The notes: generated by a model not told the origin, from the sequence alone. A DNA stretch of 64,000 bases from Acidaminococcus sp. (GCA_022482815.1 JAKVOM010000001.1:1630946-1694945); one strand, 5' to 3'. Positions 33,092-54,075 are shown, numbered from the stretch's first letter. Made by a program: numbers and translations.

Positions 33092-33735
33092 GAAAACAGC
33101 CTCGCGCCTTGATGAAGCCAAATCAAAGATTTGGCTCAATTCAATTAGGACGATGCTTGATCGTACCCATTCATGCGGTCTGAATGAATACCCACCGCAG
33201 ACGGAATGGCCTGACGATATCAGGCCATTCCTGCGGTCCTCCTTAATCAACTATCCTCCACCACTCCGTGGTCCGCCCTCCTTCCGAAGGAGGTTGTAGA
33301 GGAATTCCAAACCTAACGGTTTGGCTTAACTAAGGCGAACAGAGGGCAAAAGAGGTGCGAAAATTTCACTTGTGTCTTCTCTATTTCAAAAAGCAGCTCT
33401 TTAGGGTTAAAACATTCTATCCTCCATCGCAAGCGATTCTCCTTAACTTACTTTCCTCCGCCACTTCGTGGTCCGCCCTCCTTCCAGCGGAAGGAGGTTG
33501 TAGAGGAATTCCAAACCTGACGGTTTGGCTTAACTAGGGCGACGTGAAAGAAGGTCCGGACGTAGCAATGCTTCGCATTGCCTGAATAAATAAAATGAGC
33601 TGCGTTTTTTCACCGTAGAAGTGTTATATTTTTGTCTCTGCTATCGGATACAGATAGTTAAAAGAAATTTAAGGGTCATCATCCCCCGCAAAGCGGGCCC
33701 CCTTCTTCAATGTCGCACAGCGACGTCGAAGAAGG
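33092..33735 (+). repeat. Mosaic double-hairpin repeat block, copy 1
   Basis: Long similarity to 41932-42450, 46020-47035 and 53245-54075. Confidence 0.9.
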
Positions 33736-33984
33736 TCTCTAAAAATTTACCGCCGCAATTTTTTAATTTTATTTTTACTAAACTGACACAGGAGGTGAGG
33801 TTTAGTTTCCATGGGCGACCTGCGACGCGCGTCCCTGCAGTTGTCTTGCATCAGAGTCCATCAGAAACGAATTAAGGCCGATTTCAGCGGCTGGGGGTGA
33901 AGGCTTTGGTCTCCTTTGTCGGCCGGTCGGAAAGTCGCTGCAGGCGGGCTAAATGCCATACGCTGAATGCACTTTTCAGCCATC

Positions 33985-34080
33985 TGCAGCTATCGGCTAA
34001 CTGCTAACGGCTATCTGCCTTGGGCTTTGCCTAACAACCTGCCCGCACGGGTGTGCTAACCACTACTCACTAACCACTGC
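33985..34080 (+). repeat. GCTATC/GCTAAC heptamers plus GCCCGCACG core plus CTAACCA heptamers
   Basis: Same modules as 849-950. Confidence 0.75.
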
Positions 34081-34092
34081 CGCTACTTTCCC

Positions 34093-50400: not shown

Positions 50401-52864
50401 TTATGACGGGAAAGGAAAAACCTTATCTATTCAAGGTAAGAATATCCTGATTGATCCGGAAGCCGGCAAGGTAGCCGTGGAATCTGACAGCAAACCCATT
50501 GCCATCGGCACGGCAAATTCGGAGAACGTGGCTGTAAACGGCACGGTCTGGGCGAACAATCATGCCAATACCCCTGCAAGCACGGCGGGTTCCGTTACCA
50601 TCGAAGGCAGCACGATTACCCTTGCGGATAACAGCGGGGATTATGCTCTCCTTGCCGATGACAGCGATGCGGGTGCCCACATTGTCGTCGGCAGTGAAGG
50701 AAGCAGCGACATTACGGTTTCGGGCACAGTCCATGCCGGGAAAAATGCGAAAATCACGCTTGGCAGCGCTGCAGCTAGCAGCGTAACGTCCTCCGGCAAA
50801 ATCTATGCCGGTGAAAATGGTTCCGTGACGGCTGACGGTAGTACGATAAGCCTGTCGGATAATGACGCGGATTACGTACTTTATGCGGATGACAGTGACA
50901 GCAGCGACTCGGGAGCTGCGATTGCAGTCGGTAGTTCCCGGGGCGATACCCTTACGGTTTCCGGTGCGGTTTATGCCGGAAAAAATGCAGAGATTGCGCT
51001 TGGCTCGAAGGCAAGCCGCATCGTGGAAACCGGAAATATCCATGCCGATAAAAATAGTTCCGTAACGATTGGCCAGGAAGGCACGGCGATGCGCTATCAG
51101 GGAGATATGGATTTCGATAGTGCCGGTACGGGTAAAATTGATATGTATGCTTCGGGAAGCAGTTCCCTGATTACAGGGAAGACGACGGACCCGAATGTGA
51201 CGACAAGTTCGGCAAGCTCGGATGAGAAGACGACAGTCGCGGCAGCAACGGCGACGACCACAGCGACGACCACAGCGACGACCACAGCGACGACCACAGC
51301 GACGACCACAGCGACGACTACAACAACTACGACGTCTTCGTCTGCTTCCCGCCGCGTTCACAGTTTGCTTCTGCTCAGTACGGCAGCCACAACGGCCGCT
51401 GCGACGGAAGATACTGCGGAAACAACGACGGAAACGGCTGCGGCAACTACAGCGGAAACTACGACAACAAGCACCGCGGCAGCAGCGGGCGGTATCACGA
51501 TTCATGCTGACGATGGGGCAGTCTGGGCTCCGACGACCGGCTCTACCGCTTCGTCCTTTACGGGAAGCGGCGGCGTCCTCACGTTAAGCAACAGCACCCT
51601 GGGCGATTCCGTGACCGTAGGAAATTACGACAACGATGGTTCACAGCTCAATCTTGACATTGATGTCAACAAAAATACGGGCAATGACCGCCTTTACATC
51701 ACTGGGATGCACAGCGGCAATACCAGCATCAACATGGTCAAAATCGATCCGGATTCCCACTGGACCACGGCCATGACCGGGACGGTCCTCGTTTCGGTCG
51801 GTACGGAAAATGGCTCTTATGAGTTGGGGCAAACGTATGACGAGACCGATCTCTATTACTACGAAGCCGAGCTGGGCACGAAGGACAGCACCACTTCGGG
51901 ATATATGACGGATGTTTATCTGAAAGACGTTACACAAAATGCGACCAGGGATGGGCACTACACGCCGGCTGTCCGCACGATGATGGCGGTCAATGGCTCC
52001 AACTATCTCCTGTGGCGCAGCGATATGGATACGATGTTCCGCCGCATCGGAGAAGTCGGGAAGGGAGCCGCGCAGGCACAGGATGGTATCTGGGCCCGCA
52101 CAAAAGGCAAACGCTTTGACCGCATCGGCGAATTCGAGACGAACGCGCAGTACCATTCGTACGAAGTCGGTTATGACTTTTTGGCTAACAAGACAGATAA
52201 CCACGAGCATGTGGCTGGCGTCGGCTTTGCTTACCTCGACGGCAATACTGATTTTTACAGCGGCCGCGGCGACGTCAAGGGCTATACGCTCGGCCTCTAT
52301 GACACTCATGTCTGGAAGGACGGGCAGTATCTTGATCTGACGTTAAAGGCGCAGCATTTGTCCGATGACTTTACCTTCAGTTCCAGAGGACGTGAACACA
52401 CGGGCAAACTGAAGAGCAACGGAATTTCCTTCGGTGCCGAATACGGCTATAAGTCCACGAGTCCTGAAGGCTGGTTCGTGGAGCCGCAGACCCAGCTCAT
52501 CCTGGGTATCTTCAAGAACGGTGACTTCACTGATTCGTACGGGCTCCATTCGAATGGGGATACGGTACGCACGGCTCTCGGCCGCGTCGGCCTCCGTCTC
52601 GGATACGAAGATAAGAAGGGCTCTGTATTTATCAAGGCCGGATGGAACCATGATTTCAACGGCGGCATGAATGTCCGCTTCGCTTCCAGTGATGAAGTGC
52701 TCGATACCTATGAAGATTATGGTGATTCCTGGTTTGAATATGGGCTCGGCGCTTCCTATCAGATCAACGATCATATGCAGGCTTATGCCGACTTTATGCG
52801 CGGTGATGGGTCTGGTTATGATGAGAGGTGGAGCTGGGATGTAGGGGTTAAATGGAAGTTTTGA
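47439..52864 (+). pseudogene. Large autotransporter/adhesin (type Va) frameshifted by an 8-bp duplication at 48494-48509
   Basis: Signal peptide in ORF1, beta-helix-like repeats continuing across the junction, and a C-terminal beta-barrel ending WDVGVKWKF. Removing one TACCGTAA fuses both ORFs into 1805 aa. Confidence 0.88.
51251..51322 (+). repeat. 12-bp tandem repeat (GCGACGACCACA)x5 plus one imperfect unit, encoding ATTT
   Basis: Read directly from the sequence. Confidence 0.95.
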
Positions 52865-53244
52865 GTGATTAAAGGCACCTGCCTCACGCTGGCGTTCGAC
52901 AAGTCTCGCGCGCATCGTGAGGCAGAGTTTTTCTAGGGAAACTTTTTCTGTCCGGCGCAGAAATATAGGCGCATCTGCTTTGTCAGACCGGATTGTGACC
53001 ACTCGACGTACGTTCTTTGTACGACTTCGTGGCCCCAATCCGGTCTTCCTCGCATCTGCACCTATCTTCTGTGCCGTCCATAAAAAGAAAATGAAAAAAC
53101 AGGTGTGGGATGGTATGAAGTGTTCTGAGGATTAATTCTTGCGTGTTCACGGCTGTCTTGCAGCAGAGTTCATCAGAAACAAAATATAAAAGTCTGCGTG
53201 ATATTGGGGCATACGCTTCTTAATGGGGCGTATGCTTTATTTTT

Positions 53245-54075
53245 TATTATTGTCAAAGCAAGGCTTTTGACTATAGAGCAAAAGAGGTGCGAGCTTTCAC
53301 TAGGATCTTCTATATTTCCTTTTTGTGCAAAATTCCAGATAAGAATTAAAGGATAATAAGGGTCATCATCCCCCGCAAAGCGGGCCCCCTTCTTCAATGT
53401 CGCACAGCGACGTCGAAGAAGGTCCCTGCGGTGGAGGGATAGCTTCTTTTATTATTGTCAAAGCAGGGCATTTGACTATAGGGCAAAAGAGGTGAGAGCT
53501 TTCACTAAGATCTTCTATATTTCCTTTTTGTGCAAAATTCCAGGTAAGAATTAAAGGATAATAAGGGTCATCATCCCCTGCAAAGCGGGCCCCCTTCTTC
53601 AATGTCGCACAGCGACGTCGAAGAAGGTCCCTGTAATGGAGAATAGCTTCTTTTATTATTTGTTTAAGCATAGTTTTTGACTACAGAGCAAAAGAGCTGC
53701 CAAAATTCTAATTACGCTTGCAATATTTTAAAAAACGAAGGCTTGGGGTTAAAACATTCTATCCTCCATCGCAAACGATTCTCCTTCTTTCCCGCAGCCA
53801 ATGCTTTGCATTGCCGGAAGAAAATTAAAAGAGGTGTGGAAATAAATGGAAGCAATTCTATATTTCTTTCTGTGCAAAATGCCAGGTAGGAGTTGAAGGA
53901 TAATAAGGGTCTTCATCCACCGTCTGCCAAAGGCCAACTGACTACTCACTGCAATCTACATCAAGAATCCGCCAATGAAGCTGCCTGCACGATTGTACTA
54001 ACCCCTGGCCACCAACCCCTAACCACTTCTTCTTCTTCCTCGCCGCCGCAGGCCAGCCGACGAAGTCGGCCAAAG
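53245..54075 (+). repeat. Mosaic repeat block, copy 4, including a 205-bp tandem duplication
   Basis: Unit anchors at 53251, 53456 and 53661; double hairpins at 53358 and 53563. Confidence 0.92.

What the first reader, a model, noticed from the sequence alone, without database searches (positions are those of the whole stretch)
33092..54075. Four copies of a 0.5-1 kb mosaic of ordered palindromic modules
Seen: blocks at 33092-33735, 41932-42450, 46020-47035 and 53245-54075 share modules in partly conserved order. These include GAAAACAGC..GCCAAATC/GATTTGGC, a TACCCACCGCA..TGCGGTCC nested stem, an AAAAGAGGTG..TCTATATTT spacer, CTATCCTCCATCGC/GCGAT double hairpin, GCAATGCTTCGCATTGC, and the GTCATCATCC double hairpin. 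Module content is shuffled between copies. No protein-like ORF is evident. Inference: a BIME-like mosaic or a long structured RNA family, much longer than typical REP clusters.
Basis: partly seen in the sequence, partly recalled or inferred. Interest (0 to 1): 0.62.

Follow-up and report, generated by a model that had tools for sequence, protein, structure and literature searches.

The report
Mosaic arrays of dispersed hairpin repeats
The four blocks are local pile-ups of short hairpin-forming DNA repeats that occur in hundreds of copies across this bacterium's genome, comparable to the REP/BIME and BOX repeats of other bacteria. They stand out because their direction follows DNA replication rather than genes, they have no RAYT-type helper enzyme, and an IS110-type insertion sequence lands inside them.

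Summary
All four blocks share the listed modules, all on the + strand, in the recurring order E-(B)-G-C-(B)-F-A/D. Block 4 lacks the first two modules, and blocks 1, 3 and 4 also end in a non-palindromic module D.

The blocks are not one long RNA gene. Each module is a genome-wide repeat family of 40 to about 300 hits. Together they make 681 module copies in 359 mostly intergenic clusters, about 2% of the 3.06-Mb genome. There is no Rfam match, no coding signal and no IS homology.

Module orientation follows the replication direction, not the neighbouring genes (D 161:39, E 22:87, hairpin core 22:90). Stems show compensatory changes.

An IS110-family insertion sequence sits inside these hairpins in 13 of 14 copies, as IS621 and ISPpu9 do in REPs.

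The long modules are species-specific. Their 19-26-nt core (CCACCGC-loop-GCGGTCCCCC) recurs in 63 of 401 Negativicutes genomes, up to about 200 copies each. It shows no link to Y1/RAYT transposases.

Best reading: a BIME/BOX-like mosaic of DNA-level hairpin repeats. How they spread is unknown. I infer a single-stranded, replication-coupled step.

The parts
33093..33241 (+). Block 1, module E: about 150 nt with multiple hairpins (GAAAACAGC, GCCAAATC/GATTTGGC hairpin), ending in the nested stem ACCCACCGCA..TGCGGTCC
   Evidence: nhmmer family E, E=3e-33; 250-nt repeat at 93% identity to 46368-46617
33250..33332 (+). Block 1, module B: about 90 nt with three hairpins (CTATCCTCC..CCAC/GTGG..CCTCCTTCC/GGAAGGAGG..CCAAACC/GGTTTGG)
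   Evidence: family B, E=4e-21; 123-161 genomic copies
33341..33409 (+). Block 1, module G: AAAAGAGGTG..TCTATATTT spacer
   Evidence: family G
33408..33556 (+). Block 1, module C split by a second B copy. The C 5' part is 33408-33444, B is 33450-33536, and the C 3' arm TGAAAGAAGGTCC follows.
   Evidence: B replaces the apical part of the C hairpin that is intact at 42173-42244.
33566..33654 (+). Block 1, module F: GCAATGCTTCGCATTGC hairpin plus AT-rich spacer
   Evidence: family F, E=2e-17
33670..33745 (+). Block 1, module A: double hairpin GTCATCATCCCCCGCAAAGCGGG / CCTTCTTC..GTCGC..GCGAC..GAAGAAGG
   Evidence: family A, E=9e-21; covarying stems
33995..34079 (+). Block 1, terminal module D: non-palindromic, ..CTGCCCGCAC..GTGCTAACCACTACTCACTAACCACT.
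   Evidence: family D, E=3e-17; sequence
41883..42079 (+). Block 2, module E with its roughly 50-nt upstream extension
   Evidence: family E, E=9e-39; HSP start peak at 41883
42101..42173 (+). Block 2, module G
42173..42244 (+). Block 2, module C: intact double hairpin CTATCCTCCATCGCAAGCGAT / CCTCCTTTCGACGCCGC..GCGGCGTGAAAGAAGG
   Evidence: family C, E=2e-19
42252..42343 (+). Block 2, module F
42358..42447 (+). Block 2, module A with the exact class-wide core CCACCGCAAAGCGGTCCCCC, plus the tail CCCTACGGCGGGGGGATAGCTTC
   Evidence: (G000:1673317)
45972..46300 (+). Block 3, first part: modules F (46021-46111) and A (46127-46206), bracketed by two 97%-identical copies of a 39-nt terminator hairpin (45972-46010 and 46262-46300)
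   Evidence: (D19)
46369..46982 (+). Block 3, second part: E 46369-46517, B 46526-46608, G 46614-46685, C 46684-46755, F 46765-46848, D 46886-46982
53242..53651 (+). Block 4: two tandem 205-nt G-A units (G 53271-53318 with A 53356-53436; G 53476-53523 with A 53562-53640)
   Evidence: (D1, 95% identity)
53681..54167 (+). Block 4, remainder: G 53681-53751, C (5' part) 53750-53791, F 53797-53884, D 53925-54028, and a second partial D at 54116-54167

Best explanation
The four blocks are local arrays of at least seven families of short interspersed DNA repeats, labelled here A to G. Five are hairpin-rich (A, B, C, E, F), G is an AT-rich spacer and D is non-palindromic. They work at the DNA level, in the same way as REP/BIME, BOX or NIME mosaics, and are not a single RNA gene.

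Shown:
1. Each module is a genome-wide, mainly intergenic family. The modules join head to tail in a preferred cyclic order, C-F-A-E-(B)-(G)-C, often closed by D.
2. Their orientation is set by the direction of replication, not by the flanking genes.
3. The stems are kept by compensatory changes.
4. The pyrimidine arm of the A/C/B hairpins is the specific insertion site of an IS110-family element.
5. The long modules are confined to this species. The 19-26-nt core of A/C is a multi-copy repeat in many other Negativicutes.
6. No Y1/RAYT transposase goes with the core.

Inferred:
- The repeats multiply, or are retained, through a step in which one strand is exposed and folded at the replication fork. 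That would explain both the polarity and the selection on hairpins.
- The factor responsible is trans-acting, is not a RAYT, and recognises the conserved core.
- Arrays then grow by local tandem duplication and by recombination at the shared core and pyrimidine-arm junction.
- The resident IS110 recombinase may contribute to that recombination.
For: Dispersed families:
- BLAST of the four blocks gives 1023 HSPs in 233 loci.
- Iterated nhmmer gives A 295, C 296 (overlapping A), B 161, D 200, E 139, F 40 and G 11 hits.
- After resolving overlaps there are 681 modules in 359 clusters. 82 clusters hold three or more modules and 30 span at least 450 nt.
- Together they cover 59.5 kb, 1.95% of the genome, and 74-90% of this lies outside crude ORFs.

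Grammar:
- The commonest oriented neighbours are F>A> 23, A>E> 19, E>B> 16 and C>F> 16. This is the order seen in the window.

Polarity, with ori at dnaA 0.673 Mb and ter near 2.12 Mb, given as leading:lagging:
- D 161:39 (p = 8e-19), E 22:87, B 33:90.
- Exact core 9:49, plus 13:41 for the form with an inserted hairpin.
- Where genes lie on the lagging strand the elements still follow replication. D is 24 antisense to 4 sense and E is 13 sense to 1 antisense.

Structure:
- Module A has 19 pairs with 97.1% of cells paired, 10 pairs with double changes, and 0 of 500 shuffles reach this value.
- RNAalifold finds 9 of 18 pairs compensatory.

IS110:
- The ORF has DEDD_Tnp_IS110 and Transposase_20 domains.
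- There are 14 copies in two subfamilies, and 13 lie inside modules. The joined flanks rebuild whole A/C/B modules across the junction.
- The non-coding left ends of the two subfamilies differ only in two patches, which match their different target flanks.

Distribution:
- There is no BLAST match for A, B, D or E in 30 relatives.
- The core pattern occurs in 63 of 401 genomes of the class and 20 of 110 genera, up to 198 copies. The reversed control pattern gives about zero.

No RAYT:
- The six Y1 genes of this genome are five IS605 copies and one IS200-like copy, with unrelated ends and no module flanks.
- 8 of 20 core-rich genomes have no Y1 gene at all, while 14 of 20 core-free ones have one.

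Not a known RNA: there is no Rfam match.
Against: - No insertion polymorphism of a module itself was seen. Relatives are too distant and not syntenic, and no other strain was found in genome or metagenome scans. Mobility is therefore inferred from copy number and near-identical copies.
- No enzyme is identified.
A preferred module order, compensatory stems and a core conserved across families would also suit a functional RNA or a host-selected site.
- In the window all four blocks point the same way as the flanking genes.
- For the hairpin modules, the four blocks are in the minority orientation relative to replication.
- The polarity of B is a property of arrays, since solo copies are 24:32.
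- In one other genome, G357, the core polarity is weak: 46 lagging to 24 leading, or 42:24 if a tandem array counts once (my count).
- Gene calls were crude ORF calls.
Confidence: 0.7

Rival explanations
1. The blocks, or the roughly 0.5-kb E-G-C-F-A unit, are genes for a long structured non-coding RNA or for a family of small RNAs. On this view the C-rich loops (CCCCC, CCUCC) act on Shine-Dalgarno sequences, and the dispersed copies are paralogous RNA genes.
For: - Stems covary.
- Block 2 folds much better than shuffles (z = -7.5).
- The module order is conserved genome-wide.
- Many CCTCC/CCCCC runs are unpaired.
- The four window blocks are co-oriented with the genes.
- Weak promoter-like hexamers lie inside block 4.
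Against: - There is no Rfam family at gathering or permissive thresholds.
- There are hundreds of copies, with modules occurring singly and in many combinations.
- Orientation follows replication, not transcription.
- Copies are spread over tandem, convergent and divergent spacers roughly in proportion to the available DNA.
- The window blocks sit behind the upstream genes' terminators.
- No strong promoter was found.
Confidence: 0.07
2. Classical REP/BIME (REPIN) elements mobilised by a RAYT (TnpA_REP) Y1 HUH transposase.
For: - The elements are extragenic palindromes in high copy and in mosaic clusters.
- They are targeted by an IS110-family IS, as REPs are (PMC1525189).
- Their strand polarity is compatible with ssDNA processing (PMC6006769).
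Against: - No Y1 gene is flanked by the modules. All six Y1 genes are IS605 or IS200 copies with unrelated hairpins.
- 8 of 20 core-rich genomes lack any Y1 gene.
- There is no GTAG-type tetranucleotide at the hairpin foot.
- Co-oriented neighbours dominate over inverted doublets.
Confidence: 0.04
3. MITEs: internally deleted copies of a DDE-type insertion sequence, moved in trans by that element's transposase.
For: - The genome is rich in IS. Repeats of at least 600 nt cover 328 kb, including a 25-copy IS whose joined ends occur as solo hairpins.
- Some A copies end in a partial inverted repeat, GCTATCC-CCACCGC / GCGGTGGAGGGATAGC.
Against: - Only 3 of about 50 candidate terminal repeats are paired within 500 nt.
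- Flanks of solo copies show no consistent target duplication.
- No IS in the genome shares the module ends.
Confidence: 0.04
4. Host-selected chromosome-level signals. On this view the polar modules, above all D and the core hairpin, are binding or processing sites for a replication-, segregation- or repair-linked protein (in the manner of KOPS, Chi, or gyrase/IHF-binding BIMEs). They would be kept by selection rather than spreading selfishly.
For: - Orientation bias with respect to replication is strong.
- The 19-26-nt core is invariant across at least 20 genera.
- Density along the chromosome is uneven. It is high at 1.6-2.0 and 2.2-2.4 Mb on either side of the terminus and low at 0.7-1.1 Mb.
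Against: - The core is absent from 12 of 13 congeners and from most genomes of the class, so it is not essential.
- Copy number ranges from 0 to about 200 between close relatives, as for selfish repeats.
- An 80% skew is lower than for typical KOPS.
- Polarity in G357 is weak.
Confidence: 0.12

Closest known systems
REP / BIME (REPIN) elements of Proteobacteria with their RAYT (TnpA_REP)
   Same: - They are extragenic imperfect palindromes in hundreds of copies.
- They are assembled with other short motifs into mosaic clusters.
- Their stems are kept by compensatory change.
- They are used as specific insertion sites by IS110-family elements (IS621, ISPpu9, ISPpu10, ISPa11; PMC1525189, PMC11208160, PMC12288879).
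- ssDNA processing at the fork is the proposed route of spread (PMC6006769).
   Different: - There is no RAYT.
- There is no conserved GTAG-type guide at the foot.
- The basic unit is not an inverted doublet.
- Modules are longer (70-150 nt, multi-hairpin) and the arrays reach 0.5-1 kb.
- The hairpin arms are strictly polypyrimidine and polypurine.
- The core sequence is conserved across families of a class, rather than being specific to a species and its RAYT.
BOX elements (boxA-boxB(n)-boxC) of Streptococcus pneumoniae, and NIME/Correia mosaics of Neisseria
   Same: - They are modular repeats in Firmicutes or Neisseria with an ordered, variable module content.
- No transposase is known for them.
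- They are intergenic and form hairpins.
   Different: - No sequence relationship to these elements was tested here.
- This system has more module types.
- It shows head-to-tail concatenation of a roughly 0.5-kb super-unit and replication polarity. To my knowledge neither is reported for BOX.
IS200/IS605 family and their non-autonomous derivatives (PATEs)
   Same: - Both lack terminal inverted repeats and target duplications.
- Both rely on hairpins.
- Both are oriented relative to replication.
   Different: - The module hairpins are unlike the LE/RE of the five resident IS605 copies.
- Many core-rich genomes have no Y1 transposase at all.
Large structured bacterial ncRNAs (OLE, GOLLD, ROOL, HEARO, raiA)
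   Same: - They run to several hundred nucleotides and hold many conserved hairpins with covariation.
   Different: - There is no Rfam match.
- The copy number is in the hundreds.
- Modules are independent of one another.
- Orientation follows replication and not transcription.

Membership tests
REP/BIME-RAYT system | Short imperfect palindromes, extragenic, in tens to hundreds of copies | tested here: met
   Family sizes run from 40 to about 300 hits, and 74-90% of repeat bases lie outside crude ORFs. About 210 loci hold the Y8-hairpin-R8 architecture. The scan gave 216 and 203 hits on the two strands, against 7 on one strand of a shuffled genome.
REP/BIME-RAYT system | Clusters that combine the palindromes with other conserved motifs (the mosaic) | tested here: met
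   There are 359 clusters, 82 of them with three or more modules. The neighbour order is recurrent.
REP/BIME-RAYT system | Conserved tetranucleotide (GTAG-type guide) 5' of the hairpin foot | tested here: not met
   In the consensus sequences the hairpin feet are preceded by TCC or CCCCC runs. There is no GTAG.
REP/BIME-RAYT system | The basic unit is two palindromes in inverted orientation (REPIN) | tested here: not met
   Co-oriented neighbours dominate (F>A> 23, A>E> 19, E>B> 16, C>F> 16). Inverted pairs are a minority (C>A< 14, E<E> 11).
REP/BIME-RAYT system | A single-copy Y1 transposase gene (RAYT) flanked by the repeats and co-occurring with them | tested here: not met
   The six PF01797 hits are five IS605 copies and one IS200-like copy, with no modules at their ends. 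8 of 20 core-rich genomes have no PF01797 hit, and 14 of 20 core-free genomes have one.
REP/BIME-RAYT system | Used as a specific target by IS elements (IS110 and IS3 families) | tested here: met
   13 of 14 copies of an IS110-family IS split a module at the same place in the pyrimidine arm. The joined flanks rebuild the module.
MITE | Terminal inverted repeats at both ends of each copy | tested here: not met
   Of about 50 forward and 50 reverse matches to GCTATCCTCCACCGC, only three pairs lie within 500 nt. The ends of B and D are not inverted repeats.
MITE | Target-site duplication flanking each copy | tested here: inconclusive
   Flanks of 45 of the 57 solo B copies and of the A copies show no common duplication by eye. 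No empty sites were available to define exact ends.
MITE | An autonomous parent IS with the same ends | tested here: not met
   The ends of IS605, the IS110-type IS and the 25-copy IS are unrelated to the modules.
IS200/IS605-derived non-autonomous elements | Orientation bias relative to replication | tested here: met
   D is 161:39, E 22:87 and the core 22:90, and this is independent of gene direction.
IS200/IS605-derived non-autonomous elements | Subterminal hairpins matching those of a resident IS200/IS605, and a Y1 transposase in the genome | tested here: not met
   The LE and RE of the five IS605 copies are unlike the modules. Y1 is absent from 8 of 20 core-rich genomes.
Known structured RNA family (Rfam) | Match to a curated covariance model | tested here: not met
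   In the window only the T-box, DUF3800-I and three tRNAs pass gathering, and none of them lies in the blocks. A permissive scan of block 3 gave only chance-level hits. The same holds for the G357 array.
Known structured RNA family (Rfam) | Orientation tied to transcription, and expression as a discrete RNA | tested here: not met
   Orientation follows replication where the two conflict.
IS110-family (bridge/seek-RNA guided) target site | A DEDD recombinase element inserted at one defined position of a repeated sequence | tested here: met
   Pfam finds PF01548 and PF02371. The junctions are ..GCGGTTCT|IS|(CCT)TTCGAAGCCGC.. for subfamily 1 and ..(G/A)GA|IS|TTCTT(T)C.. for subfamily 2.
IS110-family (bridge/seek-RNA guided) target site | Guide segments in the element's non-coding end that match the target flanks | tested here: inconclusive
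   The left ends of the two subfamilies are near-identical except for two patches. Patch 2 reads GTCCTCCT..GGAGA in subfamily 1 and TTGGGACCT..GAAGAAGA in subfamily 2. These parallel their targets, GTTCT-CCT / TCTCC and TTGGGA-CCT / TCTTCTTC. This was done by eye, with no RNA model or experiment.

The most novel reading that the evidence does not exclude
The double-hairpin core (..TCCACCGC-loop-GCGGTCCCCC followed by a pyrimidine/purine hairpin) may define an undescribed repeat system spread across the class Negativicutes.
- It would not depend on RAYT.
- It would be copied or retained through a replication-coupled, strand-specific step by a still unknown factor that recognises the core.
- Its 0.5-1-kb mosaics would be built and reshuffled by recombination exactly at the site that bridge-RNA-guided IS110 elements are programmed to hit.

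In that reading the IS110 recombinase and the repeats form a linked system, with the repeats as renewable landing pads and the recombinase as array shuffler, rather than an accidental association.
Probability: 0.22. Interest if true: 0.7.

Novelty: new variant of a known kind. Interest (0 to 1): 0.5.

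Why it matters
Interspersed hairpin repeats are well studied in Proteobacteria (REP/RAYT) and pneumococci (BOX). I found no description of them for Negativicutes.

This genome shows an extreme case. Short repeats with at least five other copies cover about 5% of the genome.

Three testable features stand out:
- A sequence core is conserved across families of the class without any Y1 transposase. A different, unidentified recognition factor is therefore implied.
- The orientation rule is tied to replication. 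This constrains the mechanism to a strand-specific step.
- There is a natural pairing with an IS110-type element whose two subfamilies appear to have retargeted their guide patches to two variants of the hairpin arm. This is useful material for work on bridge/seek-RNA target choice on structured DNA.

In practice the repeats explain many apparent 'structured RNA' candidates in these genomes. They should be masked in RNA-motif searches.

Tried and rejected
- Rfam at gathering and permissive thresholds found nothing in the blocks.
- Pfam on the ORFs that cross the blocks found nothing.
- RAYT/REPtron: Y1 genes were located and their flanks inspected, with no modules found. The ends of IS605 were compared and are unrelated.
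- The terminal-inverted-repeat (MITE) test failed.
- Empty-site comparison upstream of pheS in five congeners was uninformative. The synteny is not conserved, and one relative has only about 100 nt between a divergent gene and the T-box.
- Exact and degenerate module-A patterns in genome contigs and metagenome contigs gave no hit. Plasmid and phage collections gave no hit either.
- Comparing the folding energy of the top and bottom strands was uninformative. The G-rich complement always folds better with RNA parameters, which is a composition effect.
- G.U versus A.C asymmetry suggested one-strand folding for E (40:7) and for one conserved T.G in A, but the sample was small and I do not rely on it.
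- The 25-copy IS with GGGGCTGTCGCA ends inserts at A-run|T-run sites and is not module-specific.
- An apparent clean replichore split of the core in other genomes (the first nine sites all '+') did not hold up when all 70 sites of G357 were set against its GC skew. The result was only 46:24.

Full report
**Observation**

I read the four stretches and ran an internal repeat search. The blocks share long segments:
- 33092-33341 and 46368-46617 match over 250 nt at 93% identity.
- A 116-nt segment is shared by blocks 1-3 at 89-91%.
- A 195-nt unit occurs five times, including a tandem pair 205 nt apart in block 4 that is 95% identical.
- 46869-46981 and 53908-54020 match over 113 nt at 94%.

The GAAAACAGC/GCCAAATC module and the ACCCACCGCA..TGCGGTCC nested stem are missing from block 4.

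Profile searches place the modules as follows, all on the + strand:
- Block 1: E B G C(5') B C(3') F A ... D
- Block 2: E G C F A
- Block 3: F A | E B G C F D
- Block 4: G A G A G C F D D

The ORFs of 84-117 aa that cross the blocks have no Pfam match. No Rfam family matches the blocks. The only Rfam hits in the window are a pheS T-box, a DUF3800-I RNA and three tRNAs.

**The modules are genome-wide families**

The window is positions 1,630,946-1,694,945 of a 3.06-Mb single-contig genome with 48% G+C. An autotransporter together with T-box regulation suggests a Negativicute.

- BLAST of the four blocks against the genome gives 1023 HSPs in 233 loci.
- Iterated nhmmer gives A 295, C 296 (the same double-hairpin type as A), B 161, D 200, E 139, F 40 and G 11 hits.
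- After resolving overlaps there are 681 modules in 359 clusters. 82 clusters hold at least three modules and 30 span at least 450 nt.
- The seven families cover 59.5 kb, 1.95% of the genome, and 74-90% of this lies outside crude ORF calls.
- A self-comparison shows the wider picture. Short repeats with at least five other copies cover 152 kb (5.0%). Long repeats of at least 600 nt, mostly IS, cover a further 328 kb.
- B and D often occur alone (56 and 116 solo copies). A, C, E and F occur mostly in arrays.
- The arrays are not random. The commonest oriented neighbours are F>A> 23, A>E> 19, E>B> 16 and C>F> 16. This is the cyclic order seen in the window, and block 2 is the simplest full unit of about 0.5 kb.

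**DNA-level rather than RNA-level behaviour**

GC skew and gene-strand bias place the origin near 0.66 Mb and the terminus near 2.12 Mb. dnaA lies at 672,991.

Relative to replication the modules are strongly polar, given as leading:lagging:
- D 161:39 (p = 8e-19)
- E 22:87
- B 33:90
- The asymmetric core CCACCGC-loop-GCGG[T/G]YYCC 9:49
- The same core with a hairpin inserted in the loop 13:41

Where replication and transcription disagree, the elements follow replication:
- Between genes on the lagging strand, D is antisense 24:4 and E is sense 13:1.
- Between genes on the leading strand, D is sense 62:12 and E is antisense 41:7.

Composition does not explain this. The top strands of both D and the core are C-rich, yet they prefer opposite strands.

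Copies are spread over tandem, convergent and divergent spacers roughly in proportion to the available DNA. In the window the blocks lie behind the terminators of the upstream genes: 33028-33063 (repeat family D20), and 45972-46002 and 53205-53239.

Two caveats apply. The polarity of B belongs to arrays, because solo copies are 24:32. The four window blocks carry their hairpin modules in the minority orientation, and only D is in the majority one.

**Structure**

- Module A has 19 pairs with 97.1% of cells paired and 10 pairs showing changes on both sides. Examples are CCTTCTTC/GAAGAAGG, CCTTCCTC/GAGGAAGG, CCCTCTTC/GAAGAGGG, and GTCGC/GCGAC against GCCGC/GCGGC. None of 500 column shuffles reaches this value.
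- RNAalifold on 16 diverse copies finds 9 of 18 pairs compensatory.
- A generic scan for a pyrimidine-8 arm, inner hairpin and purine-8 arm finds about 210 loci. The hits were 216 and 203 on the two strands, against 7 on one strand of a shuffled genome.
- Such covariation fits selection on a folded single strand. It does not tell DNA from RNA.

**Search for a mobilising element**

- The genome has six Y1 (PF01797) genes: five IS605 copies with TnpB, and one IS200-like copy.
- None of them is flanked by modules. The IS605 ends (TTTAC|AAATCCCCAGCGAG ... GGAGGATGTCAA) are unrelated to the modules.
- The partial inverted repeat seen at some A copies is not a general terminal repeat.
- The flanks of solo copies show no common duplication.
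- I therefore find no RAYT, no parent IS and no MITE signature.

**IS110-type elements use the hairpins as landing sites**

76 of the 359 clusters abut long repeats. One such family is a 1.5-kb IS with 14 copies in two subfamilies that are 76% identical. Its ORF has DEDD_Tnp_IS110 and Transposase_20 domains.

In 13 of 14 copies the right end abuts the 5' pyrimidine arm of an A/C- or B-type hairpin:
- Subfamily 1: ..GCGGTTCT|IS|(CCT)TTCGAAGCCGC..
- Subfamily 2: ..(G/A)GA|IS|TTCTT(T)C..

Joining the flanks restores complete modules across the junction. The one exception sits at a look-alike ..GTTCT|..CCT site.

The non-coding left ends of the two subfamilies are almost identical except for two patches. 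The second patch reads GTCCTCCT..GGAGA in one subfamily and TTGGGACCT..GAAGAAGA in the other, which parallels their different target flanks. This is what one expects of the programmable guide loops described for IS110/IS1111 elements (PMC11208160, PMC11187229), but I judged it only by eye.

IS110-family elements inserting into REPs are well known: IS621, ISPpu9, ISPpu10 and ISPa11 (PMC1525189, PMC12288879).

The IS junction lies within a few bases of a frequent module breakpoint, the boundary between the small GCGG hairpin and the pyrimidine arm. I therefore raise recombination at this site as a possible way of shuffling modules. This is a hypothesis and has not been shown.

**Distribution**

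- BLAST finds none of A, B, D or E in 30 relatives, including 16 congeners.
- Exact and degenerate A patterns are absent from the species-representative and metagenome collections. The block is also absent from plasmids and phages.
- A covariance model of the double hairpin finds weaker hits in other families of the class whose first 26 nt are nearly identical, TCATCCACCGC-AA-GCGGTCCCCCTTC.
- The pattern CCACCGC N3-7 GCGGTYCCCC occurs in 63 of 401 genomes of the class and 20 of 110 genera, with up to 198 copies. The reversed control pattern gives 0-1.
- 12 of 13 sampled congeners have none.
- One such genome, G357, has 70 copies (with the loop widened to N2-7), including a tandem array of 175-205-nt units with different companion modules and no Rfam match.
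- In G357 the core shows the same polarity as here but only weakly, 46 lagging to 24 leading against its sampled GC skew.
- Y1 transposases do not track the core. 8 of 20 core-rich genomes have none, and 14 of 20 core-free genomes have one.
- Full-text searches found no description of this motif or of such repeats in these bacteria.

**Verdict**

The 'BIME-like mosaic' reading is right as a description, and the 'long structured RNA' reading is not supported.

The elements behave like REP/BIME or BOX repeats but fail the defining REP/RAYT tests. I file them as a new variant of a known kind.

Their means of spread is not shown. I infer a replication-coupled, single-strand step driven by a non-Y1 factor that recognises the conserved core, with later tandem duplication and recombination at the hairpin junction.

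Noticed in passing
window 33800-34030; also G000 flanks of B copies, e.g. 145910-146090: Arrays of 7-nt periodic repeats flank many modules near gene 3' ends. Examples are GCGACCN-type (GGGCGACCTGCGACGCG), GCTTTTA/GCATTTA-type and GCTAWCNG-type. One B subfamily always sits between a GCTTTTAGCC..GCATTTAGC array and a GGGCGACCCGCGGCCAGCGACC array, just before a terminator.
   Followed up: partly
G000:C1, e.g. 1225050-1226938 (26 copies, one truncated): A 1889-nt IS with terminal repeats GGGGCTGTCGCA..TGCGACAGCCCC is inserted between an A-run and a T-run. The two ends joined (GGGGCTGTCGCATTTTGCGACGGCCCC) also occur alone as terminator-like hairpins behind heptamer arrays. These are possibly excision remnants or a miniature derivative.
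   Followed up: partly
G000:C1 around 240.6-242.0, 731.5-732.9, 1227.2-1228.7, 1390.9-1392.4 and 2720.2-2721.7 kb; 994278-994838: There are five near-identical IS605-type elements (TnpA plus a 373-aa TnpB), inserted after TTTAC and ending ..GGAGGATGTCAA. There is also one solo IS200-like Y1 gene.
   Followed up: partly
window 45972-46010 and 46262-46300: A 39-nt terminator hairpin (AGCTGTAGTCACTACTGATGTGGCTGCAGCTTTTTT) is duplicated at 97% identity, 290 nt apart. The two copies bracket an F-A module pair. This looks like a local duplication that accompanied array growth.
   Followed up: no
window 42595-42708: A DUF3800-I RNA (Rfam RF02969, 85.7 bits) lies directly upstream of a DUF3800 gene (42722-43417) and immediately after block 2.
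   Followed up: no
window 38624-38743: Three 40-nt phased palindromic units (TAAGAACATAAAAAC..GTTCTTA) lie just after the tRNA-Asp/Gly/Trp cluster (family D15).
   Followed up: no
window 51229-51336: A 12-nt tandem coding repeat (GACGACCACAGC) lies inside the 1399-aa autotransporter gene 48665-52864.
   Followed up: no
window 52868-53247: The 380 nt between the autotransporter stop and block 4 are also highly repeated (median of 35 other copies). They contain a GTCTTGCAGCAGAGTTCATCAGAAAC motif that recurs at 33838-33866.
   Followed up: no
L032 (G357:C1:1094700-1097100): A genome from another family of the class carries a tandem array of at least five units of 175-205 nt. Each holds the same core (CCTTCCACCGCAAGCGGTCCCCC) followed by CCTCCCCCGC-TTCG-GCGGGGGAGG and a further structured segment. 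There is no Rfam match.
   Followed up: partly
G000 whole genome: Module density is very uneven. It is high at 1.6-2.0 and 2.2-2.4 Mb (flanking the terminus at about 2.12 Mb), nearly empty at 2.0-2.2 Mb, and sparse at 0.7-1.1 Mb.
   Followed up: no
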